Origin: Deltaproteobacteria bacterium
GTDB taxonomy: Bacteria; Myxococcota_A; Polyangia; GCA-2747355
NCBI GenBank assembly: GCA_020633415.1
Contig: JACKDQ010000001.1
Coordinates: 582,723 to 646,722, forward strand
DNA length: 64,000 nt
Direction: 5' to 3'
Part shown: in pieces, positions 7,401-29,339 of the stretch
Numbering within the stretch: the first letter of the stretch is position 1
Layout: every line of letters starts with the position of its first letter
Position numbers and translations under genes: made by a program
The notes under the pieces: generated by a model
Seen by the model: only the letters and a program-made list of their open reading frames with translations
Told to the model about the DNA's origin: nothing
Databases searched by the model: none

Positions 7401-7979
7401 CTAGCCAAGATTCTTGGCGACAAAGCGCCAGTTGACGAGATTCCAGAACGCCTCGACGTACTTCGGCCGGGCGTTGCGGTAGTCGATGTAATAGGCGTGC
7501 TCCCAAACGTCGCAGGTCAAAAGCGGTTGCTTGCCCTGGCGCAGTGGGCACTCGGCGTTGGCGGTGGCAACGATCGCTAGCTTGCCGCTCGCTTCTTTGA
7601 CCAACCAGGCCCAGCCCGAGCCGAACTGCCCGACGGCTGCGTTGCTAAACTGCTCTTTGAAGGTCGCGAAGCTGCCAAAGTTTGCGTCGATCTGTTGGCG
7701 CACCGCGCCGCTCGGTTCGCCTCCCGCCTGGGGTGCGAGGCTGTTCCAGTAGAAAGTGTGGTTCCAGATCTGCGCGGCGTTATTGAAGACGCCTCCATCG
7801 GCGCCGCGAATGATCTCTTCGAGGCTCTTGCCCGCCCACGGCGAGCCGCCGACGAGCTCGTTGAGCTTGTTGACGTAGGCTTGGTGGTGCTTGCCGTAGT
7901 GGAACTCGAGGGTCTCCGCGGAAATGTGGGGCGCCAAAGCATCTTTGGCATAGGGAAGATTAGGTAGCTCAAACGTCAT
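7401..7979 (-). CDS. sodB: Fe/Mn-family superoxide dismutase
   Basis: MTFELPNLPYAKDALAPHISAETLEFHYGKHHQAYV ... WEHAYYIDYRN. These are canonical Fe/Mn SOD N- and C-terminal signatures. The true start is at MTFEL (cat at 7977-7979); the longer listed ORF runs into the upstream repeats. Confidence 0.92.
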   Translation of the reverse strand: MTFELPNLPYAKDALAPHISAETLEFHYGKHHQAYVNKLNELVGGSPWAGKSLEEIIRGADGGVFNNAAQIWNHTFYWNSLAPQAGGEPSGAVRQQIDANFGSFATFKEQFSNAAVGQFGSGWAWLVKEASGKLAIVATANAECPLRQGKQPLLTCDVWEHAYYIDYRNARPKYVEAFWNLVNWRFVAKNLG

Positions 7980-8058
7980 CTCGTCCTCCTCGCTCGCGCA
8001 AACGTGTTCGTGTGCCGCGATCTTCGGCCGCAGGGAGAAATTTGCAAGAGATGGTTGA

Positions 8059-8405
8059 CCGGCGTTGGCGGTTCCAACGCAGATCGGGGTGAGAGGATTC
8101 GCACTGTCTCTCAAGTCCGAATCCGCTGCGCATGCCGGCGTTGGCGGTTCCAACGCAGATCGGGGTGAGAGGATTCGCACTGTCTCTCAAGTCCGAATCC
8201 GCTGCGCATGCCGGCGTTGGCGGTTCCAACGCAGATCGGGGTGAGAGGATTCGCACTGTCTCTCAAGTCCGAATCCGCTGCGCATGCCGGCGTTGGCGGT
8301 TCCAACGCAGATCGGGGTGAGAGGATTCGCACTGTCTCTCAAGTCCGAATCCGCTGCGCATGCCGGCGTTGGCGGTTCCAACGCAGATCGGGGTGAGAGG
8401 ATTCG
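8059..8405. repeat. 76-bp tandem direct repeat array, about 4.5 copies, abutting tRNA-Pro
   Basis: The unit is ccggcgttggcggttccaacgcagatcggggtgagaggattcgcactgtctctcaagtccgaatccgctgcgcatg, repeated at 8059, 8135, 8211, 8287 and 8363. The last copy merges into the tRNA. Each unit contains the tRNA 3'-terminal 18 nt (tcggggtgagaggattcg) and a 7-bp hairpin (gcgttgg-cggtt-ccaacgc). Confidence 0.9.
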
Positions 8406-8535: not shown

Positions 8536-9528
<993 letters not shown>

Positions 9529-11054: not shown

Positions 11055-12041
11055 ATGCGCGCTGATGTCGATCGTCGCGCGACGCTGCTCGTCGTGCTGC
11101 TCGCGCTCTGCATTGGCGGTGGTTGTCAAAGCCACGCGACGAGCGAGCGGGACGGGCGCGTCGTTGTCGACCACGCCGTGGTCGATCTAGCGGACGACGC
11201 GGCGAGCAACTGTTTTGCTGCGGTCGAGGGTCGCGCGGCTGGCGCGCTGCGCTTCGCTGCGCTCGACGAAGCCTCTGGGATTGTCGCTAGCGCCAAAAAT
11301 CCAGGCGTGTTTTGGGCGCACAATGATGCTGGCAACGCCGCCGAGCTGTTTGCCTTCAATCGCTCAGGCGAACTGCTGGCGCGTTACGCATTGGCCGGTG
11401 TGGTCGGCATCGACATCGAAGACCTTGCCTTGGGTCCCAGCGAAGATGGTTTGGCCGAGGACTTGTTCATCGCCGACATCGGCGATAACGACCTGCTGCG
11501 CGGCACGGTCGTCGTCTACCGCTTTGCCGAGCCGATAGTAAAAAGTGACCAGGCGCCGATCACTGCGTCGCTCGCACCGCTCGCCGAGTATGTCTTGCGT
11601 TATCCCGACGGTGCCCATGACGCCGAGACGCTGATCGTCGATCCTGTGCGCGGCGATCTACTGATCGCCACCAAGACCAAACAGGCGCCGGCCAAACTGT
11701 TTGTCAGCACGGCGCCGCTCGATCCGCTCAACGCGCGTTTGCTCGTGCTCGCCGGCAGCTTGGCGATCGGTCAGCCGCCGCTCGAAGCGAGCGACCGTCG
11801 ACTGACCGCCGGCGATGCGCGCGACAACCAGATCATCCTCAGAACCTACAGCGGCGCGTTCCTTTGGCGCAGCGACGGCGTACCGCTGGCAGAGGCGCTG
11901 ACGACCACTCGCCCCTGCGCGCTTCCGGTTGATGATGCGCCGCAAGGCGAGGCGATCGCGCTCGATCCCGCTGGCGCGGGCTATTTCACGATCAGCGAGG
12001 CGCTGCGCGCGACGCTCTACCACTACCAATGGCGCGAGTAG
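11055..12041 (+). CDS. Lipoprotein, predicted beta-propeller (SdiA-regulated / phytase-like esterase family-like)
   Basis: Starts 2 bp after the CotH stop. Lipobox LALCIGGGC. Contains repeated Asp/Gly-rich strand motifs (FWAHNDAGN, FIADIGDND). Confidence 0.4.
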   Translation: MRADVDRRATLLVVLLALCIGGGCQSHATSERDGRVVVDHAVVDLADDAASNCFAAVEGRAAGALRFAALDEASGIVASAKNPGVFWAHNDAGNAAELFAFNRSGELLARYALAGVVGIDIEDLALGPSEDGLAEDLFIADIGDNDLLRGTVVVYRFAEPIVKSDQAPITASLAPLAEYVLRYPDGAHDAETLIVDPVRGDLLIATKTKQAPAKLFVSTAPLDPLNARLLVLAGSLAIGQPPLEASDRRLTAGDARDNQIILRTYSGAFLWRSDGVPLAEALTTTRPCALPVDDAPQGEAIALDPAGAGYFTISEALRATLYHYQWRE

Positions 12042-12189
12042 CGGCAGGGAAAGTCCAGACAAATCAGTCTGTTATTTGCGCGACCACGCCGGTGTTCGGC
12101 GGTGGCCCGTCGACAGCTGGCCGATTCAATGCGACAACGCTGCGTGGCGTTGCCCTAGATCGTGGCAACGTTTTGCAGGGGTATGAGTC

Positions 12190-13320
12190 GTGAGTTATCT
12201 GCGCTTATCGGTGGCGATTTTTCTGGTGGCCTGGGCCGGATGCGGCGCTCCGCACTCGGCGCGGCCGGTCGGTTGGGTGGCATCGTCGGGGGCCGATCGC
12301 GTCGGCGCTGAAGCGACGGCGGCGACGATGACGGCGCTGCCGCGTTGGATGTGTCACTACCGTTCCTCGCGCGTGCAAGGGTTGCTCCGTGATTTGCCGC
12401 TGCGGCTGCATTGGGATGGACCGGACGTTGCGAAGCTCAACTACTATGGGCGCAGTGCCGAGGCGTGGCTCTACCAAGGCGATCCGTTTCCCGGCGCGCG
12501 GCTGCGCTTTTACGGCGGGATTTTGCGGTTCACCGCCTACGCGCGACCGGCGCGGGCGACGATGGTTACCCCGTCGGCGCCGGTGCTCTGCAAAGCCGGC
12601 GTCGTTGCGCTCAACGGTGCACGTCTGACGGTGCTTTCTACCAATCGTACCTCGCTGCTGATGCAGTGTCCGCTGCCGACGGCCTACACGCCGACCAACT
12701 TGGTTTCCACCGTCGCGCTGCAATGCGAAGAGACCAAGCTTGGCCCCGATCAGCTGAGCGCCGAGCACCAGTGGCGCCGCTATGGTTTGCCCGACAAATA
12801 TGCCGATGGCTATTTGGCCAAGGACAAGCCGGTCGATGTCTATGCCGCGCCCAATGGCGAACAGCTCGGTACGTTGCGCGCCGCGTACACGCTCAAGCTG
12901 CGGCGGATCGAAGATCGCGGCGCCTTTACCCGGGTGATCTATCAAACCGGCAATTCGGCGATCGATGGCTGGATCAAAACCACAGCACTTCATGCGGAGC
13001 CGGCTGTGGGTGGAGGAGGACTCGGTGTCGGCAGCATCTTGGGCATGCTTTCCGGCGGAAAACGCCGCGACGGTTTTCGTTGCCCACAGTCGCTGGCGCT
13101 GCATATCAGCGGTCTGCACAGTGGCAAGGGGCGGCGCTACGCCTTGGGGCTGCTCTCTCCAGGCGTGTTCTTCGCGCCGAGCACCGGCGGGCTCGCGCGC
13201 TTTCGTTCGGTCGATGTTCCCCAGCTGAGTTGGCTCAAGCCGCTCGATGGCTGGCGTTTCGAAGTCGCCCAAGACGAGCTCGAGCAGGCCGGCTGCCAAC
13301 CGCAAAGCGCGTTGCAGTAG
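12190..13320 (+). CDS. Secreted hypothetical protein (lipoprotein signal)
   Basis: 376-aa ORF starting MSYLRLSVAIFLVAWAGC, in the same orientation as the CotH operon. No domain recognised. Confidence 0.45.
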   Translation: MSYLRLSVAIFLVAWAGCGAPHSARPVGWVASSGADRVGAEATAATMTALPRWMCHYRSSRVQGLLRDLPLRLHWDGPDVAKLNYYGRSAEAWLYQGDPFPGARLRFYGGILRFTAYARPARATMVTPSAPVLCKAGVVALNGARLTVLSTNRTSLLMQCPLPTAYTPTNLVSTVALQCEETKLGPDQLSAEHQWRRYGLPDKYADGYLAKDKPVDVYAAPNGEQLGTLRAAYTLKLRRIEDRGAFTRVIYQTGNSAIDGWIKTTALHAEPAVGGGGLGVGSILGMLSGGKRRDGFRCPQSLALHISGLHSGKGRRYALGLLSPGVFFAPSTGGLARFRSVDVPQLSWLKPLDGWRFEVAQDELEQAGCQPQSALQ

Positions 13321-18539: not shown

Positions 18540-19570
18540 ACGTCGCCGCCTTTGCTGTGCCACCGCGCAATCCCGTGTGGGCCTTTGCGGGGCTCGCCTC
18601 CGTCGAACGCCGTCTCGTCGAGGAGCGCTACCTTGTGGTCACGAATGAGGACGGCGTGTTTGCCGGGCTGTTGACCATCGACGACGCCATCAGGCGGCCT
18701 CGCAAACTGGTTGTCGACTGCGTTGGTCCCAAGCCGGTCTTGCCGCACGACCTCTCGGTTGACGACGCCATCGAGAGAATGGCCGGCGGATCGCATCAGT
18801 TCTTACCTGTGCTCGACTGCGAGCGTTGCATCGGCGTTGCGCACTATACCGACCTGATGGTGGCGCTAAATCCGCAGCGCGGGCCGCGGCGTCTGCATAC
18901 GCTGGCTGCCGGTATCGCTCACGACCTCAATAACTTGCTATTCGGCATTAGCGCGACCGTCGACGCGCTGGAAGACGATACGAGCCGTGAGGAGTATCGA
19001 ACCATCGCCGAGTGTACGCGCCGGGCGCGGGCGTTGACACGTTCGCTGATGGATCGCGTCAGTGGTCAAGGACCCGTCTGGACATCGGATACCATCGCGA
19101 CGTGGATCAGCGACACCGTGCGCCTTTATTCCGCGGGGACCGGCGTCGCGGTGAGTTGCGATATTCCTGCGCAGCTGCCCAACGTCAATCTGTCACTTGC
19201 GGATCTCGATCGCGTTTTGGGAAACCTAGTCGTCAACGCAGTCCGCGCCTGCAAAACGTGCGGTGGATCGATCCGCGTCTCGGTCTCACGGGTGCTGCCC
19301 GGATCGGACTTCGCGGCCACCGGCGGTGTGGAAGTGGTCGTAGCCAGCGAGGGAGCTCCAATTTCTCCCGAGACGCGAGCGCGTCTATTCGAACCGCATT
19401 TTAGCACCGACATCGACGGCCACGGGCTCGGGCTGGCCATCGTCAAGTCGATCGTGACGGATGCTGGCGGTAGCGTGGCGGTAACGTGCGAGGGTGGGTG
19501 GAATGCTTTTGCGTTCCGTTTGCCGCTATCGGAGGCAGCTGCGGTGAACGTCGTGGGCGCACCCTCGTGA
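18536..19570 (+). CDS. CBS-domain sensor histidine kinase
   Basis: N-terminal CBS pair (VVTNEDGVFAGLLTIDDAI..., QFLPVLDCERCIGVAHYTDLM), H-box LAAGIAHDLNNLLFGI, G-box GHGLGLAIVKSIV. Confidence 0.75.
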   Translation: MNVAAFAVPPRNPVWAFAGLASVERRLVEERYLVVTNEDGVFAGLLTIDDAIRRPRKLVVDCVGPKPVLPHDLSVDDAIERMAGGSHQFLPVLDCERCIGVAHYTDLMVALNPQRGPRRLHTLAAGIAHDLNNLLFGISATVDALEDDTSREEYRTIAECTRRARALTRSLMDRVSGQGPVWTSDTIATWISDTVRLYSAGTGVAVSCDIPAQLPNVNLSLADLDRVLGNLVVNAVRACKTCGGSIRVSVSRVLPGSDFAATGGVEVVVASEGAPISPETRARLFEPHFSTDIDGHGLGLAIVKSIVTDAGGSVAVTCEGGWNAFAFRLPLSEAAAVNVVGAPS

Positions 19571-19583
19571 CCACGTTTTCCGA

Positions 19584-20603
19584 CTAACGGGGTTGGGCGA
19601 TCACGCCGAGGTGCACGATGCGTGCGCCGGCGCGCGCGACGGGGTTGGTAGCCATCCCGACGACGATCGCCGGCTCCGGCGCCGTGTAGGTTCGCAGCAG
19701 CTGTCCCCAGGGATCGATGAGGCGAGCGATTTCATCTCCTGCGCTGAGCTCTTGCCGAAGCGCGACGCGCAGCCGCAGGATCCCGCCGGTGTCGGTGTAG
19801 AGCCAATACGATCGTCCGCACTCGATAGCGGCGTGCTCGTTGCGCTCGCCGTCGGGATCGACCATGTTGAGGTCTTCGAGGAGGTCGCGCAGACCGATAC
19901 GAGACTTGCGTACTAGCGGTCTTTCGATGACCTGCGGATCGCCAACTTCGACGGTGATGGCGTGCACGCCGGCCGCTGCCGCCGCGGCTCGCAACGTGCC
20001 GTCCCCTCCGGGGTTGTGCACGATGATCTCAGCGCCGATTTGCCGGGCCATCATCGCCGTTAGCTCGTTGCTCATGTCGGCGCGCACATAGAGCGAGTTG
20101 ACGCGACCAAAACTCGCAGTGTGCAAGTCGACGAGGTAGTCGAAATGGCCGATCAGGCGTTGCATCAATAGATGGGCATAGAGCTGCGCTTCATTGCCAT
20201 TGGCGCGGCCGGGCATGATGCGATTGAGGTCCTGGCCGTCGGGATATTCGCGCTGATAGCGGATGTAGGCCGGGAGGTTGACGATAGGTGCGCCGATCAG
20301 CGTACCGCGCAGCTTTTTGGGGTCGATGTGCTCGAAGAGCGCTTGGATCACGCGGATGCCGTTGACTTCGTTGCCGTGGATGGCTGCGGTGACGCCAAAT
20401 GTTGGTCCTGCTGTGCTTCCGCGTGCGACCAGCAGAGGTAGTCGTATCGGTCGCGCAGCGGCGTTTTCCAGTAGTGTGAGCGCGAGCAGATGAGTTCGCC
20501 CGGCTTCCAAGGTGGATACCTCGAGGTCGTCGACCACCTTGGGTTGCATCACTTCGTGTCGACTGATCCAGGTATTCGAGGAGACGTCGTCAGCGTTGAT
20601 CAT
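19584..20603 (-). CDS. Succinylglutamate desuccinylase / aspartoacylase (AstE/AspA) family zinc hydrolase
   Basis: GPTFGVTAAIHGNEVNGIRVIQ (HxxE zinc motif), with a length and layout typical of the AstE_AspA family. Confidence 0.7.
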   Translation of the reverse strand: MINADDVSSNTWISRHEVMQPKVVDDLEVSTLEAGRTHLLALTLLENAAARPIRLPLLVARGSTAGPTFGVTAAIHGNEVNGIRVIQALFEHIDPKKLRGTLIGAPIVNLPAYIRYQREYPDGQDLNRIMPGRANGNEAQLYAHLLMQRLIGHFDYLVDLHTASFGRVNSLYVRADMSNELTAMMARQIGAEIIVHNPGGDGTLRAAAAAAGVHAITVEVGDPQVIERPLVRKSRIGLRDLLEDLNMVDPDGERNEHAAIECGRSYWLYTDTGGILRLRVALRQELSAGDEIARLIDPWGQLLRTYTAPEPAIVVGMATNPVARAGARIVHLGVIAQPR

Positions 20604-20737
20604 GCCGCCATCGTAGCAGAGCGCCGTAGGCTGGGGCCATCTGCTGCGACGTCCCGAGCAAACGGTGCGCTAAGGCGCGGTCTCGCAGTATCTAGGCCGG
20701 ATGCCATCCGAACTGGCCGTCCGACGTCGGTAGCGAG

Positions 20738-20920
20738 GGAGGGGACGTAGGTTGAATTTAGGGAATTAGGCAACAACGGTTGCCAGCCGACGATATCCTC
20801 GCCATGGCACGCCAGCATCGCGTCGTATCGCCGGGTTCGACACAGCACGTTGTTTCCAGGTTTCTCGACCGACGCTTCCGGCTCGTCGACCCGATCGACC
20901 GCGACAATTACTTGCAGGGT
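20738..20920 (+). mobile_element. Truncated left-end copy (183 bp) of the RAYT/IS200-like element
   Basis: Identical to 22972-23154: the left inverted repeat plus the first ~40 codons of the transposase (MARQHRVVSPGSTQHVVSRFLDRRFRLVDPIDRDNYLQ). The sequence then diverges. Confidence 0.85.
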
Positions 20921-21361
20921 TTTCGTTTTTGAAAATGGTGGTGGTGTCCTATCAGACGGAGCAGGCGATGTTGCTCTGTTCTGCACTCACGCCCTGATGG
21001 CGATGGAGAAGAAGATGCCGTTGAAGTCTGTTACTTGGATCACCGCCTTCGGCTTCTGTTGGATTGACTGCGGCGCAGGCGATACCTCGCAGTGGCCGAG
21101 TGATCTGGCGGTCACCGAGGGACCGAAGCAACGCCGACGGGCCGAACTGCGAGCAACCGTTTCCCCCGCTTGAATGCACGCCAAAGTTCATGCACCCTGC
21201 GCGTTGGGCGCGGCCGCCCCGGGTAGCGGTACGCGCTCATCGGCTGCTCGCTTGCGACGTCGGCACGTGCGCACGCAGAGCTTTTCGCGACAAAGCCGAA
21301 AAGCCTTCACCGGGCCGGCCCCACGGATACTCGAGCTGCCACCCCGCTTTCCGCTTTCTTC

Positions 21362-22969
21362 ATGCTATCGGTGTTGTCTTTGAAATGTTTGACTGTTTTG
21401 CTTGCAACGGTTGTCACGATTCTTGCTTTTTGGAGATCTATGAGCCGACGATGCGCGAACGCTTCATCCTTAACGCACGCGGCCCTCTGCCGGCGATTGT
21501 CGTGGGCGCTGCTGATGGTGCTTACCGCAACCATCGGCTGCGGAGCGGTAGCGCAGGACCTCTCATCGAGCAGCGATTCGCCTGGCAAGGGCGAGAGGAC
21601 CAGCGCTGCCGATGTTTGGCCGGGCGGACTGATCCCCTACTACTTCATCGACGCCGAACGCCGGGTCTACCCGCCGCCTACTGCGGGCGCTTGGCCAGGG
21701 AATTGGCTGGCGGTGCATTTTGGTGAGGCCTACTCCGTCCGTATCAGCGATTGCTTCCAGCAGCTCGAGAGCTTCACCGGTCTGCGCTTCGTTCCGACCC
21801 AGTACGTGCACAACATGGCGTTTTCCAACGCGCTGGAGATCCGGCTCTATCGAAACGATGGCACGAGCTTTGCCAATCACCTCGGCTTTCGCGGGATCCC
21901 CACCGACTACATCGATGTCTCCAATCCCAAGCATTTCTGTCACGAGGTGATGCACAAGCTGGGCTTCGACCACACCCAGCAACGAAGCGATCGCGATCGC
22001 TATGTTCGTGTGCGGATGCAACATGTGGGCGAAGGGTTCGAGAACGAGTTCATCAAGAGCAGCGACGCACCTGTTGGGGACTACGATTTTCGCTCGGCGA
22101 TGCACTACAACTCCTACACCTTCAGCAAAGACTACTGTCCGGTGATTGTGCGCGCGCCGACCAATCAACGGGAGACGACCGCTGTCAACGATGATTGTCT
22201 GAAGTACATCGCCCACGATAGCGATCCGTTGCATCATCTGTACATCGAAGGGGCGCTGACGCTGAGCGGCAACGATTTTTGGTTGATTCGTCGCGCCTAC
22301 TGCCACTCGAGAATTTGCGGCGCAAAGTGTTCGCCGGACATCGCCTGCAACGCAGCGGTGGCTTCGACGCTGTTCGCTCAGCAATATCTCGGTGTCGCTC
22401 AGCAGGGCGAGTCCGCGCCGGCGGCAGCCTACAACAAGTTGTACGACAACGCCGCGCTGCGCGACCGCGTGATCGATGCTGCACTCAAACAGCCCGCCGA
22501 GCGCCACAACGCCGATCACGACAAGGGCCTCAATCGCGCGGTGATGTGGCCCGCCGGACGACCGCGACTGATCTGGATCACGCAGGAGCGCTACACCGTG
22601 CCGTTGAACGTACATCCGATCTGGGGTGGCCAGAGTCGCGATTCGTATCGGTTGTCCTGCTACCTCAGCGGTGGGCACATCTTCGATGCCACGTGCTTTG
22701 CCGACTTCGACGAACACCAAGGCGCGTGGCAGCTCAAGGTCGACCTGCGCTGGGGCACCAGCCGGCCGGAGATCCTCGGCAGCGAAACCACGGTGTGGGT
22801 GCCGACGACCGATGATCGTCTCGTGGAAGTCCAGCCGATGGCCCAGGCCAGTTGGTCCTACAACAGCGAATACGACGCGATCCAACTGCACGTGCCCAAG
22901 GCGATCTCCGCCGGTGCCAACGGCCCGCCCGATCTGCCCGCAGGCACCTGGTTGCTTGACCTGCCCTAA
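21362..22969 (+). CDS. Astacin-like (M12A-type) zinc metalloprotease lipoprotein, paralog A
   Basis: Zinc site HEVMHKLGFDHTQQRSDRDRYV (HExxHxxGFxH..RxDRDxY), Met-turn SAMHY, and a likely lipoprotein signal starting near 21440 (LTATIGC). The stop is 2 bp before the element's left end. Confidence 0.75.
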   Translation: MLSVLSLKCLTVLLATVVTILAFWRSMSRRCANASSLTHAALCRRLSWALLMVLTATIGCGAVAQDLSSSSDSPGKGERTSAADVWPGGLIPYYFIDAERRVYPPPTAGAWPGNWLAVHFGEAYSVRISDCFQQLESFTGLRFVPTQYVHNMAFSNALEIRLYRNDGTSFANHLGFRGIPTDYIDVSNPKHFCHEVMHKLGFDHTQQRSDRDRYVRVRMQHVGEGFENEFIKSSDAPVGDYDFRSAMHYNSYTFSKDYCPVIVRAPTNQRETTAVNDDCLKYIAHDSDPLHHLYIEGALTLSGNDFWLIRRAYCHSRICGAKCSPDIACNAAVASTLFAQQYLGVAQQGESAPAAAYNKLYDNAALRDRVIDAALKQPAERHNADHDKGLNRAVMWPAGRPRLIWITQERYTVPLNVHPIWGGQSRDSYRLSCYLSGGHIFDATCFADFDEHQGAWQLKVDLRWGTSRPEILGSETTVWVPTTDDRLVEVQPMAQASWSYNSEYDAIQLHVPKAISAGANGPPDLPAGTWLLDLP

Positions 22970-22971
22970 AA

Positions 22972-23881
22972 GGAGGGGACGTAGGTTGAATTTAGGGAAT
23001 TAGGCAACAACGGTTGCCAGCCGACGATATCCTCGCCATGGCACGCCAGCATCGCGTCGTATCGCCGGGTTCGACACAGCACGTTGTTTCCAGGTTTCTC
23101 GACCGACGCTTCCGGCTCGTCGACCCGATCGACCGCGACAATTACTTGCAGTGCATCGCCAGGATCGCTGATCAGGTGGATGTCCGCTGGTGGTCGTACG
23201 CACTGATGTCCTCTCACGTACATCACGGACTCCGCCCCAGTGTGGTCCCGCACGCCAGAGTCTTTCAGCCGCTTCACACCCGCTTCGCCCTGCTTTGGCA
23301 TCGCCGACACGGTGGGTTGGGTCCGGTATTCGCCGACCGCCCGAAGAACTGGGCTGTGCCGCAGGCGCTTGTCCCCCGCATGATTGCCTATCATCATCGA
23401 AATCCCGTTTCCGCGGGCGTCGTGTCGCGCGCGCAGGATTGCCGATGGACGAGCCATCGTGCCTACCTGCGCCTCGAAGCGCCGCCGCTTTGGCTCGACG
23501 TCGAGCAAGGCTTGGCGATTTGTGGCTTCTCCGATACCGCTGGCGGTCGGACAGCCTTCGATGAGTTTGTTCACGATGTTGATCTCGACCAGAGATCGCT
23601 CGACTTGGAGACGGTCAAACCTGTCGAAGTCGAGTGCGAACCGAGTCACGAGACCATCAGGTTGTTGCTTTGTCGTTTCTGCGAGGCTCGCAAGATTGCC
23701 CCTTCAACGATCACCAGCCCCTCGCGTCCGATCCGCGCCGAGCGTCTAGCGTTTGTCGCGATCGCTTTGAATGCTGGGTTTTCGCGGGTCGAGATCGGAC
23801 GTTGCCTGGGCATTTCACGCTCAGCCGTTACAAAGCTGGCCAGTCGTCTTGCTTAATTCCCCTAAGTCAACATACGTCCCC
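22972..23881 (+). mobile_element. Compact insertion-sequence-like element: HuH-Y1 transposase gene flanked by ~35-bp imperfect terminal inverted repeats
   Basis: Left end ggggacgtaggttgaatttagggaattaggcaacaa (22975-). The right end reverse-complemented is ggggacgtatgttgacttaggggaattaagcaagac (-23881). About 28 of 36 positions match. A single internal ORF fills the element. Confidence 0.7.
23014..23856 (+). CDS. IS200/IS605-like (RAYT-like) HuH-Y1 transposase fused to a C-terminal DnaA-type HTH
   Basis: HuH motif YALMSSHVHHG, a catalytic Tyr motif IAYHHRNPVSAGVV (the Y-x-H-x-NP-V-x-A-G-L-V of RAYT/TnpA-IS200), and a C-terminal segment LAFVAIALNAGFSRVEIGRCLGISRSAVTK resembling the DnaA C-terminal HTH. 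Confidence 0.75.
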   Translation: MPADDILAMARQHRVVSPGSTQHVVSRFLDRRFRLVDPIDRDNYLQCIARIADQVDVRWWSYALMSSHVHHGLRPSVVPHARVFQPLHTRFALLWHRRHGGLGPVFADRPKNWAVPQALVPRMIAYHHRNPVSAGVVSRAQDCRWTSHRAYLRLEAPPLWLDVEQGLAICGFSDTAGGRTAFDEFVHDVDLDQRSLDLETVKPVEVECEPSHETIRLLLCRFCEARKIAPSTITSPSRPIRAERLAFVAIALNAGFSRVEIGRCLGISRSAVTKLASRLA

Positions 23882-27590: not shown

Positions 27591-27796
27591 CACGCCCCGA
27601 GAACAAGAACGCGTTGGCGGCAACGTTGAGGTAGGAACTAGAAGAGCACCTTCTTCAGCTTCGACGATGGCTTTGGCGACCAGCGCGGCCTTGGTGCTGC
27701 CTGTCGTTGGCAACCAAAGTTCGTGAGGCGCCGATTCACTCGGCGGTCGATGTCGGCGCCGCTATAGGCTTCTGTCGCCTGTCGGCCAGGTGGCTA

Positions 27797-27834
27797 CTTG
27801 TCTTGCTTAATTCCCCAAACTCAACGTACGTCCC
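27797..27834. repeat. Solo copy of the element's right inverted repeat
   Basis: cttgcttaattccccaaactcaacgtacgtcccc closely matches 23847-23881 (cttgcttaattcccctaagtcaacatacgtcccc). It lies immediately 3' of the astacin paralog B stop. Confidence 0.7.
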
Positions 27835-27836
27835 CA

Positions 27837-29339
27837 TCACGGGCGATCGAAAGGTACGCTGACCCAGCTGGTTTCGGGCAAGGCAGGCAAGCCGTCGAGC
27901 TTGATGCCGCGCGTCGTCAACGTCATCCGCCGGCTCTCGCGATCGAATTGCCAGCTGACCTCGCCGTCGATCATCAGCGGCGGGCTGTTTAGTGCCCGGT
28001 GCGCATAGATTTCGCTTCCTAACTGTTCGACGCCACCTTCGCCATCCCAGCGGAAGCCACCGCGAACGATGTAATGTCCGTCGCTATCGGTGGCGTAGAA
28101 CGTGCACTCGAGCTCGAAGACGTGGCCGCCAAGGGTCGAGCAGAATGCTTGTCTAAACGCGTCGCATTTTTCCTCGCACGCGTCGTCGAACCGCAGGGAA
28201 ACAGTCGTTCCCTCTTTGCGCCAACTCAGCGGTCCTCCCAGAAAGTAAGGCGACAAGTCTTGCGCGCGGTTAGCGTTGTTGGTGGCTGCCGGTCGGGCCA
28301 ATGCCGCATCGATCAGCTGATCGATGTCGCTGCGCCGCGCCAGACGCCGGTAAATGCTATCGATGCCGCCCCCGAAGACCGCCTTGGCCAGCTGCGTGCC
28401 GGCGATCCCTTGGCGACAATAATCAAGCGGCGCGCAGCGCGATCCGCATGCCTTGGAATGGCAGTAGGCGTACCGCACCAACCAGAGGTCGTTGCCGGTC
28501 GGTAGCAAGCTTGGTGGGATGTGGAGCTGATTGTTTGGATCGGTGTAGCGCGTGCCATCTTCGGCGATTTTCTGCTCGTTGACGATTTGGTGGTAACACG
28601 GACGCGGATCGATCGCGGCATCTGGCGCTGGCCGCTTGAGGATCGTCGCACAGCCGTCCTTTGTCCCAGCGAAGGAACTGTAGTGCATCAGCGATGCGAC
28701 GTCGTATTGGCCAATATCGATCACCGAGGTCCCGCTGTACGGTTTGAAGGCGTAAAGCAGCTCAGTCTTGATGCGATCTTCGCGAATCAAAACGTAGCGG
28801 TCGCGATCTCGGCGCTGGTGGGTGTGAAGGAATCCCAGCTTGTGCATCAGCTCATGGCAAAACGTGCTCGAGTTGGCGATCGTCACAGCGTTGCCCTCGG
28901 GCGCCGCGCCGGGGCTGTCTGCGTAGCCGCCGATGTTTTCAGCTAGCTTGGTGAACTTGATCGCCAGAGCAGCGGGCGAAGGGCGTGTCTGCGGTACGAA
29001 TCGCAGGCCGGTGGTGCTCAGGCGCTTAAAGCATTCCCCCAGGCGATAGCCCAGCTGATCGTGGTCAGCGGGAAACTGTCGCTTGAGCCGCGCCGCCACC
29101 CAGCTGGCCGGCCAGTAGCGTAGCGTGCCCGGCGGCTCGATCAGTTGACCCGCATCATCGACCAGGTAGTAGGGCACGATGCCGTTGGCCCAGCGCCGTG
29201 TCGGCGAACCGACCAGCGGGTTCTCGCCTTTGCGCCACTCGTCGTTGCGCCTCTGCGCTGCGTCGCTCCCCGGCTCAGGCTGGAGTCCGCAGGCCGAACA
29301 GAGCATTAACATCGCGGCTAACAAGCGAAACATCGACAA
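27837..29339 (-). CDS. Astacin-like (M12A-type) zinc metalloprotease lipoprotein, paralog B
   Basis: HELMHKLGFLHTHQRRDRDRYV, Met-turn SLMHY, lipobox (LMLCSAC). It shares a C-terminal Cys module with paralog A (NDLWLVRYAYCHSKACGSRCAP versus NDFWLIRRAYCHSRICGAKCSP). Confidence 0.75.
   Translation of the reverse strand: MSMFRLLAAMLMLCSACGLQPEPGSDAAQRRNDEWRKGENPLVGSPTRRWANGIVPYYLVDDAGQLIEPPGTLRYWPASWVAARLKRQFPADHDQLGYRLGECFKRLSTTGLRFVPQTRPSPAALAIKFTKLAENIGGYADSPGAAPEGNAVTIANSSTFCHELMHKLGFLHTHQRRDRDRYVLIREDRIKTELLYAFKPYSGTSVIDIGQYDVASLMHYSSFAGTKDGCATILKRPAPDAAIDPRPCYHQIVNEQKIAEDGTRYTDPNNQLHIPPSLLPTGNDLWLVRYAYCHSKACGSRCAPLDYCRQGIAGTQLAKAVFGGGIDSIYRRLARRSDIDQLIDAALARPAATNNANRAQDLSPYFLGGPLSWRKEGTTVSLRFDDACEEKCDAFRQAFCSTLGGHVFELECTFYATDSDGHYIVRGGFRWDGEGGVEQLGSEIYAHRALNSPPLMIDGEVSWQFDRESRRMTLTTRGIKLDGLPALPETSWVSVPFDRP

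What the first reader, a model, noticed from the sequence alone, without database searches (positions are those of the whole stretch)
22972..23881. Compact element encoding a RAYT/IS200-like HuH-Y1 transposase fused to a DnaA-type HTH, bounded by 35-bp imperfect inverted repeats
The 280-aa ORF has the HuH motif (SSHVHHG) and the Y-x-H-x-NP-V-x-A-G-V-V tyrosine motif. These are diagnostic of IS200/IS605 TnpA and REP-associated tyrosine transposases. It also has a C-terminal ~60 aa resembling the DnaA C-terminal DNA-binding domain.

Classical IS200/IS605 elements lack terminal inverted repeats. Here the gene is bracketed by ~35-bp imperfect inverted repeats (28 of 36 identical), and the left one contains its own hairpin (ggcaacaacggttgcc). 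That is the architecture of RAYTs flanked by inverted REP-like sequences.

Two further partial copies occur in the window: a 183-bp left end with the transposase N-terminus at 20738-20920, and a solo right-end repeat at 27797-27834. The family has therefore been active or recombining here.
Basis: partly seen in the sequence, partly recalled or inferred. Interest (0 to 1): 0.55.

Follow-up and report, generated by a model that had tools for sequence, protein, structure and literature searches.

The report
RAYT-like transposase gene with inverted-repeat ends
This is a real, intact copy of a rarely studied but already named kind of bacterial element, a "TIRtron": a RAYT-like single-strand DNA nuclease fused to a DnaA-type DNA-binding domain and framed by inverted repeats, so it is a new member of a known class, not a new class.

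Summary
A 907-bp unit (22975-23881) carries one gene, 23014/23038-23856. The HuH histidines and the catalytic tyrosine are invariant across 30 homologues. The predicted fold is closest to the E. coli REP-associated transposase (4ER8). The C-terminal domain is closest to the DnaA DNA-binding domain (3PVP). The 47-nt inverted repeats, the 100 % identical 180-bp left-end copy (20738-20917) and a solo right-end copy (27788-27835) are all real.

This class is already described. It is the TIRYT/"TIRtron" of Di Nocera et al. 2013, which is subclass 2.1 of Quentin et al. 2018. No biochemistry was found in the literature search.

Eighty related loci, nearly all from Myxococcota MAGs, add three points:
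- The repeat tip GGGGAC(G) is nearly invariant.
- The tip is followed by two 8-9-bp direct boxes that differ between paralogues (GAATT boxes here).
- The ~28-nt units also occur as solo copies and tip-out dimers.

The units are not REP-like hairpins, and I saw no target duplication.

The likely mechanism is inferred, not shown: the HTH reads the boxes and the HuH domain nicks at the tip.

A genome-wide copy count was not possible, because the repeat is absent from the searchable collections.

Verdict: correct reading, new member of a known kind, moderate interest.

The parts
22975..23021 (+). Left terminal inverted repeat (LE). The core unit is about 22975-23004: tip GGGGACG (22975-22981) and two GAATT boxes 9 bp apart (22988-22992 and 22997-23001).
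   Evidence: for the repeat. for the family-wide tip and the 8-9-bp box periodicity.
23003..23018 (+). 6-bp stem hairpin (GGCAAC AACG GTTGCC) in the inner part of LE. It is not mirrored in RE or the solo copy. Its role is unknown; it may be regulatory.
   Evidence: LE z = -2.8; RE and solo not structured.
23038..23856 (+). TIRYT gene, 272 aa from ATG 23038. The mechanical ORF starts at TTG 23014 (280 aa). Residue numbers below count from the TTG. The HuH-Y1 catalytic domain is about aa 12-190, with H68 and H70 at nt 23215-23223 and Y126 at nt 23389-23391. A linker follows. The DnaA-domain-IV-like HTH is about aa 212-280 (nt 23647-23853).
23835..23881 (-). Right terminal inverted repeat (RE). 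The tip is at 23881. It overlaps the last 22 nt of the gene.
20738..20917 (+). Truncated second copy: LE plus the first 46 codons, 100 % identical to 22972-23151. It starts at the tip (plus a shared GGA) and ends at an unmarked breakpoint.
   Evidence: An independent assembly confirms it.
27788..27835 (-). Solo RE-type repeat, 85 % identical to RE. It keeps the last few codons and the stop of a TIRYT gene (VATCLA* against LASRLA*). Its tip lies 1 nt from the stop codon of astacin paralogue B.

Best explanation
What it is. This is a TIRtron. It consists of one gene for a TIR-associated tyrosine transposase (TIRYT; TnpA_REP-like subclass 2.1), framed by two 47-nt terminal inverted repeats.

The protein has two modules:
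- an N-terminal HuH-Y1 single-strand DNA nuclease/ligase of the RAYT type;
- a C-terminal DnaA-domain-IV-like helix-turn-helix.

Each repeat has two modules as well:
- an outer tip, GGGGACG, which is almost invariant across the family;
- two direct 8-9-bp boxes (GAATT-type here) that differ between paralogues.

Proposed mechanism (inferred, not shown). The HTH docks on the two boxes of a repeat. This places the HuH domain about one helical turn away at the tip. There Tyr126 nicks the strand just outside GGGG. The resulting strand transfer or copying spreads the ends as solo units, tip-out dimers and occasional partial copies, while the gene itself mostly stays in place, as with RAYT and REPIN.

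What is shown: the domain identities, the repeat anatomy, the precise unit boundary at the tip, the dispersal of units in relatives, and the recent duplication here.
For: Catalytic domain:
- H68, H70, Y126, H128 and P131 are invariant in 30 homologues.
- NCBIfam REP_Tyr_transpos matches residues 12-145 end to end, and 27 of 30 members match it, best E = 4.8e-11.
- The AF2 model has pLDDT 87.9. Its top PDB match is 4ER8 (RAYT with a REP hairpin), E = 4.6e-6, TM 0.73, followed by the IS608, ISDra2 and IS200 TnpA structures.

HTH domain:
- The family profile hits only DnaA domain IV in the PDB (E = 0.0075).
- Bac_DnaA_C matches 6 of 30 members, best E = 2.5e-8.
- hhalign against E. coli DnaA domain IV gives E = 7.5e-5.
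- The domain model's top hit is 3PVP, the DnaA DNA-binding domain on box DNA, TM 0.68 and rmsd 2.4 A over 73 columns.

Repeats across the family:
- At least 45 of 68 testable homologous loci have flanking inverted repeats with z = 8.7-51.
- 39 of those 45 carry (G)GGGAC at the tip.
- Positions 10-30 of the unit autocorrelate at lag 8 and lag 9, z = 6.9 and 8.2.
- The flank outside the tip is unconserved, and I saw no target duplication in the copies inspected by eye.

Dispersal in relatives:
- L001 has 8 units in 10.8 kb, including two 65-68-bp tip-out dimers and a singleton.
- L004, L011, L015, L023, L040 and L066 carry further solo or dimer units.
- The L002-type unit occurs inside L001, which is from the same MAG.

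Modularity: the paralogues L001 and L002 share the tip (100 %) but not the boxes (39 %). Their N-terminal domains are 66 % identical and their C-terminal domains 49 %.

Residency: eight Kofleriaceae/Haliangiales loci share flanks 80-89 % identical up to the tips. Plasmid homologues are very rare.

Literature: PMC3733652 and PMC6006769 describe the same class.
Against: - No biochemistry exists for any TIRYT in the literature I could search, so the nick site, the strand and the DNA form (single- or double-stranded) are all inferred.
- The window protein passes no curated family threshold by itself.
- A global test for box/HTH covariation was inconclusive. It is confounded by phylogeny: Spearman rho is 0.27 for the C-terminus and 0.33 for the N-terminus.
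- HuH enzymes need single-stranded DNA, and the units are not hairpins. How the tip becomes single-stranded is therefore open.
- The 180-bp partial copy includes coding sequence. That fits movement or copying of the gene-bearing element better than spread of the ends alone.
- The genome-wide repeat count for this organism is unknown.
- The published motif GGGGWSAS is matched at only 6 of 8 positions.
Confidence: 0.6

Rival explanations
1. It is an autonomous insertion sequence. The whole 907-bp unit moves as one piece, with the transposase acting on its own inverted-repeat ends. Solo and partial copies are debris of whole-element transposition followed by deletion.
For: - The layout is compact: repeat, gene, repeat.
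- The second copy is 100 % identical and includes 138 nt of coding sequence.
- The solo copy keeps the last codons and the stop of a TIRYT gene.
- The tip-out dimers in L001 join LE-type and RE-type halves, as in an internally deleted element.
Against: - There is only one full copy in 64 kb.
- In relatives, paralogues within one genome are 30-50 % identical and each has its own repeats. No near-identical full gene copies appeared among the 80 loci.
- Orthologous chromosomal positions are conserved across genera.
- Plasmid homologues are almost absent.
- Many 28-nt singleton units carry no gene remnant.
Confidence: 0.25
2. It is a domesticated, no longer mobile DNA-binding protein or nuclease. 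The inverted repeats are operator or regulatory sites, for example for autoregulation. The extra copies arose by ordinary recombination or duplication.
For: - The HTH domain could bind repeats that overlap the region just upstream of the start codon and the 3' end of the gene.
- The locus is syntenic in relatives.
- Composition is fully ameliorated, GC about 0.60 throughout.
Against: - The catalytic HuH and Tyr residues are invariant.
- Dispersed units in relatives start exactly at the tip and have unrelated flanks.
- The partial copy here also begins at the tip.
- The solo copy is 85 % identical to RE, although the adjacent astacin paralogues are only 31 % identical. It is therefore not a relic of that old duplication.
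Confidence: 0.12
3. The inverted repeat and the motifs are chance features of a GC-rich sequence, and the ORF is spurious.
For: - An antisense ORF of 227 aa (22966..23649) exists, and a gene caller chose it in one public assembly.
- The curated HMM hits are weak.
Against: - 133 homologues were found, with E-values down to 1e-70.
- 14,039 library representatives match the family profile at E <= 1e-10.
- The fold is predicted with high confidence.
- The repeat statistics exceed chance.
Confidence: 0.01

Closest known systems
TIRYT / TIRtron (Di Nocera, De Gregorio and Rocco 2013, PMC3733652), which corresponds to TnpA_REP-like subclass 2.1, especially 2.1.2 (Quentin et al. 2018, PMC6006769)
   Same: - A RAYT-like HuH-Y1 protein that is longer than RAYTs.
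- A C-terminal Bac_DnaA_C / HTH_23-type extension.
- The gene is flanked by terminal inverted repeats instead of REP hairpins.
- The repeats begin with a GGGG motif.
- The repeats can form small families of singles, dimers and groups.
- Several divergent genes can sit in one genome, each with its own repeats.
   Different: - The tip here, and in the Myxococcota clade, is GGGGACG(N). The published consensus is GGGGWSAS, matched at 6 of 8 positions.
- Neither paper names myxobacteria: 'Myxococc' gave no hit in either text.
- The two 8-9-bp direct boxes behind the tip, the tip-exact unit boundary and the syntenic but fast-diverging loci are not mentioned in the passages I read.
- Phylogenetic placement within subclass 2.1 was not tested.
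RAYT / TnpA_REP with REP and REPIN sequences (E. coli YafM, PDB 4ER8; PMC8266576)
   Same: - It is the closest solved fold and the closest curated HMM.
- It has the HuH motif, a single catalytic Tyr and the Y-x-x-NP-V-x-AG-V and W-[ST]-S motifs.
- The gene is resident and low-copy, flanked by inverted copies of a short repeat.
- That repeat is also dispersed as singles and inverted dimers (in relatives).
   Different: - The repeats are not palindromic hairpins and lack the GTAG tag.
- The protein carries an extra ~70-aa HTH domain plus a linker.
- It scores far below the equivalog cut-off (17.9 against 80 bits).
IS200/IS605 TnpA (IS608, ISDra2, IS200)
   Same: It has the HuH-Y1 fold (ranks 2-17), a very small single-gene element, and no target-site duplication.
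   Different: - IS200/IS605 elements have subterminal hairpins and no inverted repeats.
- Those elements insert next to a fixed tetra- or pentanucleotide. Here the flanks are unconserved apart from a pyrimidine preference at position -1.
- Pfam Y1_Tnp scores below its gathering threshold.
DnaA domain IV (Bac_DnaA_C; PDB 3PVP, 1J1V, 2HCB)
   Same: It is the best fold and profile match for the C-terminal ~70 aa. DnaA domain IV reads 9-bp boxes as a monomer, and the repeats here carry two boxes 9 bp apart.
   Different: There is no AAA+ module. The boxes (GAATT / AACTT-like) do not resemble the DnaA box TTATCCACA. The window protein itself does not reach any Pfam Bac_DnaA_C score.

Membership tests
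TIRYT / TIRtron (TnpA_REP-like subclass 2.1) | RAYT-like HuH-Y1 catalytic domain with the HuH motif and one catalytic tyrosine | tested here: met
   H68, H70 and Y126 are invariant. REP_Tyr_transpos matches end to end, in 27 of 30 members. 4ER8 is the top fold match.
TIRYT / TIRtron (TnpA_REP-like subclass 2.1) | C-terminal HTH extension (Bac_DnaA_C, HTH_23 or HTH_28) | tested here: met
   HTH_23 gives E = 0.0017 on the window protein, below the gathering score. Bac_DnaA_C matches 6 of 30 relatives and HTH_23 matches 6 of 30. DnaA domain IV is the best hit by profile and by fold.
TIRYT / TIRtron (TnpA_REP-like subclass 2.1) | Gene flanked by terminal inverted repeats rather than REP hairpins | tested here: met
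   47-nt inverted repeat, z = 9.8. RE and the solo copy are not self-structured. At least 45 of 68 homologous loci show the same arrangement.
TIRYT / TIRtron (TnpA_REP-like subclass 2.1) | Repeat motif GGGGWSAS (GGGG[AT][CG]A[CG]) | tested here: inconclusive
   The window has GGGGACGT, 6 of 8 positions. The clade consensus is GGGGACG. The papers say the motif holds for 'some' or 'the majority' of repeats, so it is not an absolute criterion.
TIRYT / TIRtron (TnpA_REP-like subclass 2.1) | Phylogenetic placement inside subclass 2.1 | not tested
RAYT / TnpA_REP sensu stricto | Score above the NCBIfam equivalog cut-off (NF047646, 80 bits) | tested here: not met
   17.9 bits for the window protein. 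All 30 members fall below the cut-off.
RAYT / TnpA_REP sensu stricto | Flanked by palindromic REP sequences carrying a GTAG tag | tested here: not met
   The units are non-palindromic and have no GTAG.
RAYT / TnpA_REP sensu stricto | Cognate repeat dispersed through the genome | not testable with these tools
   There are four copies in 64 kb, all within 7.1 kb. The repeat pattern is absent from both public collections. Dispersal is seen in relatives.
IS200/IS605 TnpA | Pfam Y1_Tnp above its gathering score | tested here: not met
   13.3 bits against 23, E = 0.092. 10 of 30 relatives reach E <= 0.01.
IS200/IS605 TnpA | Subterminal hairpins at both ends, no inverted repeats, fixed target tetra- or pentanucleotide 5' of the left end | tested here: not met
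   Inverted repeats are present. Only LE has a hairpin. The flanks are unconserved.
DnaA domain IV | Pfam Bac_DnaA_C hit on the protein itself | tested here: not met
   No hit at E <= 1 for the window protein. The fold and the family profile do match.

The most novel reading that the evidence does not exclude
TIRYTs use a mode of HuH transposition that has not been described. It is guided by the ends, not by hairpins. A DnaA-like HTH reads two paralogue-specific 9-bp boxes on duplex DNA. This delivers the HuH-Y1 domain to a universal GGGGACG nick site, so that ~28-nt non-palindromic units, tip-out dimers and the gene cassette are copied or moved. Specificity would then be set modularly by the boxes and the HTH. 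This would explain why several families coexist in one genome, and why the cassette diverges much faster than its syntenic flanks.
Probability: 0.3. Interest if true: 0.6.

Novelty: new member of a known kind. Interest (0 to 1): 0.36.

Why it matters
TIRYTs are a large family: 14,039 cluster representatives match the family profile at E <= 1e-10. They are almost unstudied, and I found no experimental work on them.

This locus and its relatives give a clean substrate definition for a first biochemical test: the tip, the two boxes and the exact unit boundary. They also give natural examples of every product class: a full cassette, a partial copy, a solo unit and, in relatives, tip-out dimers.

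If the modular recognition model holds, it would show how a single-strand nuclease can be retargeted by a duplex-binding domain. It would also show how REP-like repeat families can arise without hairpins.

For genome annotation, the lesson is practical. The gene escapes the curated HMM thresholds, and in at least one public assembly it was called on the wrong strand.

Tried and rejected
- Genome-wide repeat count. The pattern GGGGACGTANGTTGANTTNNGGGAATTA gave 0 hits in genome contigs and in metagenome contigs. The source MAG is not searchable as DNA.
- Exact-protein look-ups. Neither the 272-aa nor the 280-aa product is on record. In one Logan assembly the caller took the antisense ORF.
- Presence/absence polymorphism. 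All other assemblies of this organism agree with the window, or break inside the 180-bp repeat.
- Covariation of box sequence with the HTH domain against the catalytic domain, over 666 locus pairs. It was not discriminating.
- Target-site duplications and a conserved target. I saw no duplication in the copies inspected by eye. Position -1 is a pyrimidine in 88 of 115 units, but this is partly inflated by how the G-run was anchored and by non-independent copies.
- The solo repeat as a relic of the astacin gene duplication. Rejected: the paralogues are only 31 % identical and the repeat is 85 % identical to RE.
- Remnants of a second TIRYT gene near the solo copy. None beyond the last ~7 codons.
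- Synteny between the window and the related loci. The only shared neighbour is an AstE/AspA-like gene near L006, and it is not colinear.
- Rfam and promoter/terminator consensus scans. Nothing found.
- Compositional anomaly. None.
- The family profile against PDB sequences did not reach RAYT for the N-terminal domain. The link needed the fold comparison.
Full report

Yes, at essentially the stated coordinates.
- The ORF 23014..23856 (+) encodes 280 aa from a TTG. Homologues begin at the position of the ATG at 23038 (MARQHR... aligned with MPRxxR...), so 272 aa is the likelier product.
- SSHVHHG (H68-V-H70) and Y126-HHRNPVSAGVV are present.
- The repeat finder reports arms 22975-23021 and 23835-23881, 47 nt and 77 % complementary. 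The best ungapped core is 33 nt with 28 matches, z = 9.8 against shuffles.
- The copy at 20738-20917 is 180 bp and 100 % identical to 22972-23151. It holds the left end plus 46 codons.
- The solo copy at 27788-27835 is 85 % identical to the right end.
- A repeat 28-mer has 3 matches against 0.00 expected. An nhmmer profile finds exactly four copies in the 64 kb, all within 7.1 kb.
- An independent ENA assembly (L086) is 100 % identical over window 19428-22266 and spans the truncated copy. Short-read Logan contigs break inside the 180-bp repeat, as expected for a true repeat.

**2. What the protein is**

Curated models barely see the window protein. Pfam Y1_Tnp gives E = 0.092 (13.3 bits against 23). 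HTH_23 and MarR_2 give E about 0.002. NCBIfam REP_Tyr_transpos gives E = 0.0022 (17.9 bits against 80), although that match runs end to end, residues 12-145 on model positions 2-145 of 146.

The family context settles the question.
- 133 homologues were found, with E-values down to 1e-70, mostly from Myxococcota MAGs. JGI names several of them 'REP element-mobilizing transposase RayT'.
- In a 30-sequence alignment, M65, S66, H68, H70, Y126, H128, P131, W145, S147, H148 and R149 are invariant.
- 27 of 30 members hit REP_Tyr_transpos (best 4.8e-11). 10 of 30 hit Y1_Tnp, 6 of 30 hit Bac_DnaA_C (best 2.5e-8) and 6 of 30 hit HTH_23.
- The AlphaFold model (pLDDT 87.9) matches the E. coli REP-associated transposase bound to a REP hairpin best (4ER8_A, E = 4.6e-6, TM 0.73). 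The IS608, ISDra2 and IS200 TnpA structures follow.
- The family profile's only PDB sequence hits are DnaA domain IV (2HCB, 1L8Q, 1J1V; E = 0.0075-0.022) for profile positions 204-294.
- hhalign against E. coli DnaA domain IV gives E = 7.5e-5, probability 62 %.
- A separate model of the last 78 residues (pLDDT 88.8) has the M. tuberculosis DnaA DNA-binding domain on box DNA as its top fold match (3PVP, TM 0.68, rmsd 2.4 A over 73 columns, probability 1.0; E-value weak at 0.21, as expected for a small domain).

**3. What the repeats are**

I fetched 80 homologous loci from GTDB genomes. Nearly all are Myxococcota MAGs; one is Eisenbacteria and one Thermoanaerobaculia.
- Of 68 loci with enough flank, at least 45 have strong inverted repeats bracketing the gene (z = 8.7-51). 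This is a lower bound, because some ORF starts were mis-set in GC-rich DNA.
- In 39 of those 45, the arm contains (G)GGGAC. Aligned on it, positions 2-6 are invariant and position 7 is G in 85 %. The six bases outside are unconserved.
- Positions 10-30 autocorrelate at lag 8 and lag 9 only (z = 6.9 and 8.2). This means two direct 8-9-bp boxes follow the tip, for example GTGAAATA GTGAAATA in L001 and TCGTCTTT TCGTCTTT in L006.
- In the window the boxes are GAATT at 22988-22992 and 22997-23001. RE has GACTT and GAATT. The solo copy has GAGTT and GAATT.
- Folding as single-stranded DNA shows only the LE-specific 6-bp hairpin (z = -2.8). RE and the solo copy are unstructured (z -0.5 to +1.1). These are not REPs.

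**4. Behaviour in relatives**

The ~28-nt unit recurs away from the gene.
- L001 has eight units in 10.8 kb. Two are tip-out dimers of 68 and 65 bp that join an LE-type half to an RE-type half. One is a singleton, and the right end is doubled.
- L004 and L040 have distant dimers. L011, L015, L023, L040 and L066 have solo units.
- The unit of paralogue L002 occurs inside L001, which is from the same MAG.
- In 33 loci there are 45 units beyond the expected two per locus.
- Every copy starts exactly at GGGG and has unrelated DNA outside. I saw no target duplication in the copies inspected by eye.

The gene itself looks resident.
- Several genomes hold 3-4 paralogues that are 30-50 % identical, each with its own boxes.
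- Eight Kofleriaceae/Haliangiales loci share flanks 80-89 % identical right up to the tips. Their TIRYT proteins are only 43-52 % identical, and the cassette DNA is 62 % identical.
- Plasmid homologues are nearly absent: 4 records at 21-29 % identity.

**5. The local history in the window**

The truncated copy starts at the tip, plus a shared GGA, and stops at an unmarked breakpoint (20917/20918). It lies 2.2 kb upstream, with the astacin-like gene A (21362-22969) in between.

Its 100 % identity implies a recent event. Two scenarios remain open: a partial or aborted copy initiated at the left tip, or a second full insertion followed by deletion. I cannot tell them apart.

The solo copy is RE-type and retains 'VATCLA*' where RE encodes 'LASRLA*'. 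No other gene remnant is present.

Both LE (5 nt) and the solo copy (1 nt) abut the stop codons of two convergent astacin paralogues. These paralogues are only 31 % identical. The repeat is therefore too well conserved to be a relic of that duplication, and the coincidence remains unexplained.

**6. Mechanism**

Shown:
- the catalytic residues and the folds;
- the bipartite repeat (tip plus boxes);
- the tip-exact boundaries of all copies;
- dispersal of units in relatives;
- the recent partial duplication here.

Inferred:
- The HTH reads the two boxes. DnaA domain IV reads 9-bp boxes as a monomer (established knowledge).
- The HuH domain nicks at the invariant tip, and Tyr126 forms the covalent link.
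- The products are copies of the ends, and sometimes of part of the cassette.

The paralogue pair L001/L002 fits a modular reading. The tip is 100 % identical and the boxes 39 %. The catalytic domain is 66 % identical and the C-terminal domain 49 %. A global covariation test was not discriminating.

How the tip becomes single-stranded is open. Candidates are local melting, the replication fork, or an LE/RE panhandle.

**7. Comparison with what is known**

The class is published.
- Di Nocera et al. 2013 (PMC3733652) named RAYT-like genes flanked by inverted repeats 'TIRtrons' and their proteins 'TIRYTs'. They reported a GGGGWSAS motif in some repeats and small repeat families of singles, dimers and groups.
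- Quentin et al. 2018 (PMC6006769) equated most TIRYTs with their subclass 2.1, whose members carry Bac_DnaA_C, HTH_23 or HTH_28 C-termini. They noted that the GGGG motif does not resemble a DnaA box.
- I found no experimental work on TIRYTs.

The present element meets the defining features, apart from a variant tip motif (GGGGACGT). It fails the stricter tests for RAYT sensu stricto and for IS200/IS605.

**8. Source and scope**

The window's FeoB is 100 % identical to a protein of an NCBI 'MAG: Deltaproteobacteria bacterium', on a contig of up to 947 kb. The TIRYT homologues point to Myxococcota. The family is large: 32,787 representatives at E <= 1e-3, 14,039 at 1e-10 and 1,545 at 1e-30.

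**9. Verdict**

The reading is correct and the feature is well supported. It is a new member of a known but uncharacterised kind.

The added value lies in the refined repeat anatomy, the evidence for unit dispersal and for a resident but fast-evolving cassette in Myxococcota, and a concrete, testable mechanism. Interest is moderate.

Noticed in passing
window 21362-22969 (+) and 27837-29339 (-): Two convergent astacin-family (PF01400) metalloprotease paralogues, only 31 % identical. Each has a repeat tip directly after its stop codon, 5 nt and 1 nt away. The repeat is too similar to RE (85 %) to be a relic of the gene duplication. This is either a coincidence or a target preference, and it remains unexplained.
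   Followed up: partly
window 20738-20740 and 22972-22974: The three bases outside both left-end copies are identical (GGA). This could be chance (1 in 64), part of the duplicated segment, or a target-site signature. Relatives show no conserved flank beyond a pyrimidine preference at -1: 88 of 115 units, partly an anchoring artefact.
   Followed up: partly
window 22966-23649 (-): A 227-aa antisense ORF overlaps the TIRYT gene. A gene caller chose it in one public assembly (L088 genes 11854-12021 and 12018-12545). This probably explains why the real protein is absent from the gene index.
   Followed up: yes
window 8059-8405: A perfect tandem repeat: period 76 nt, 4.6 copies, 100 % matches, TRF score 694. 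It lies between ORFs 7401..8180 (-) and 8536..9528 (+). It is unrelated to the finding.
   Followed up: no
L011, L020, L023, L038, L040, L054, L060, L066 (for example L020:3025-4156 against L066:4899-6044): The chromosomal site is the same in different Kofleriaceae/Haliangiales MAGs. The flanks are 80-89 % identical up to the repeat tips. The cassette between the tips is about 62 % identical, and the TIRYT proteins are 43-52 % identical. The insert either evolves fast or is repeatedly replaced at a fixed site.
   Followed up: partly
L001:313-380, L001:2042-2106, L004:10416-10528, L040:1627-1846: Tip-out inverted dimers of the repeat unit without a gene, 65-220 bp. They resemble REPINs or MITEs. 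The L001 dimers would fold into perfect 28-bp hairpins as single strands.
   Followed up: partly
L001 and L002 (same Sandaracinaceae MAG, JADJQN01): Two paralogues with the identical tip (GGGACGATCG) but different boxes (GTGAAATA x2 against TTAGTTAAC / AAAGTTAAC). Their catalytic domains are 66 % identical and their C-terminal domains 49 %. A unit of the L002 type lies inside L001 at about 2884.
   Followed up: partly
L018, L020, L044, L048, L050, L069: Some relatives carry two or three tandem copies of the repeat unit at each end, about 60 nt apart. This is reminiscent of the multi-site ends of complex transposons or of REP clusters.
   Followed up: no
window 19584-20603 (-) and L006:7190-8044: An AstE/AspA-family gene lies next to the truncated copy in the window. 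A 46 % identical homologue lies about 1.3 kb from the TIRYT cassette in Polyangiales locus L006, in a different orientation. This may be a remnant of a shared neighbourhood.
   Followed up: partly
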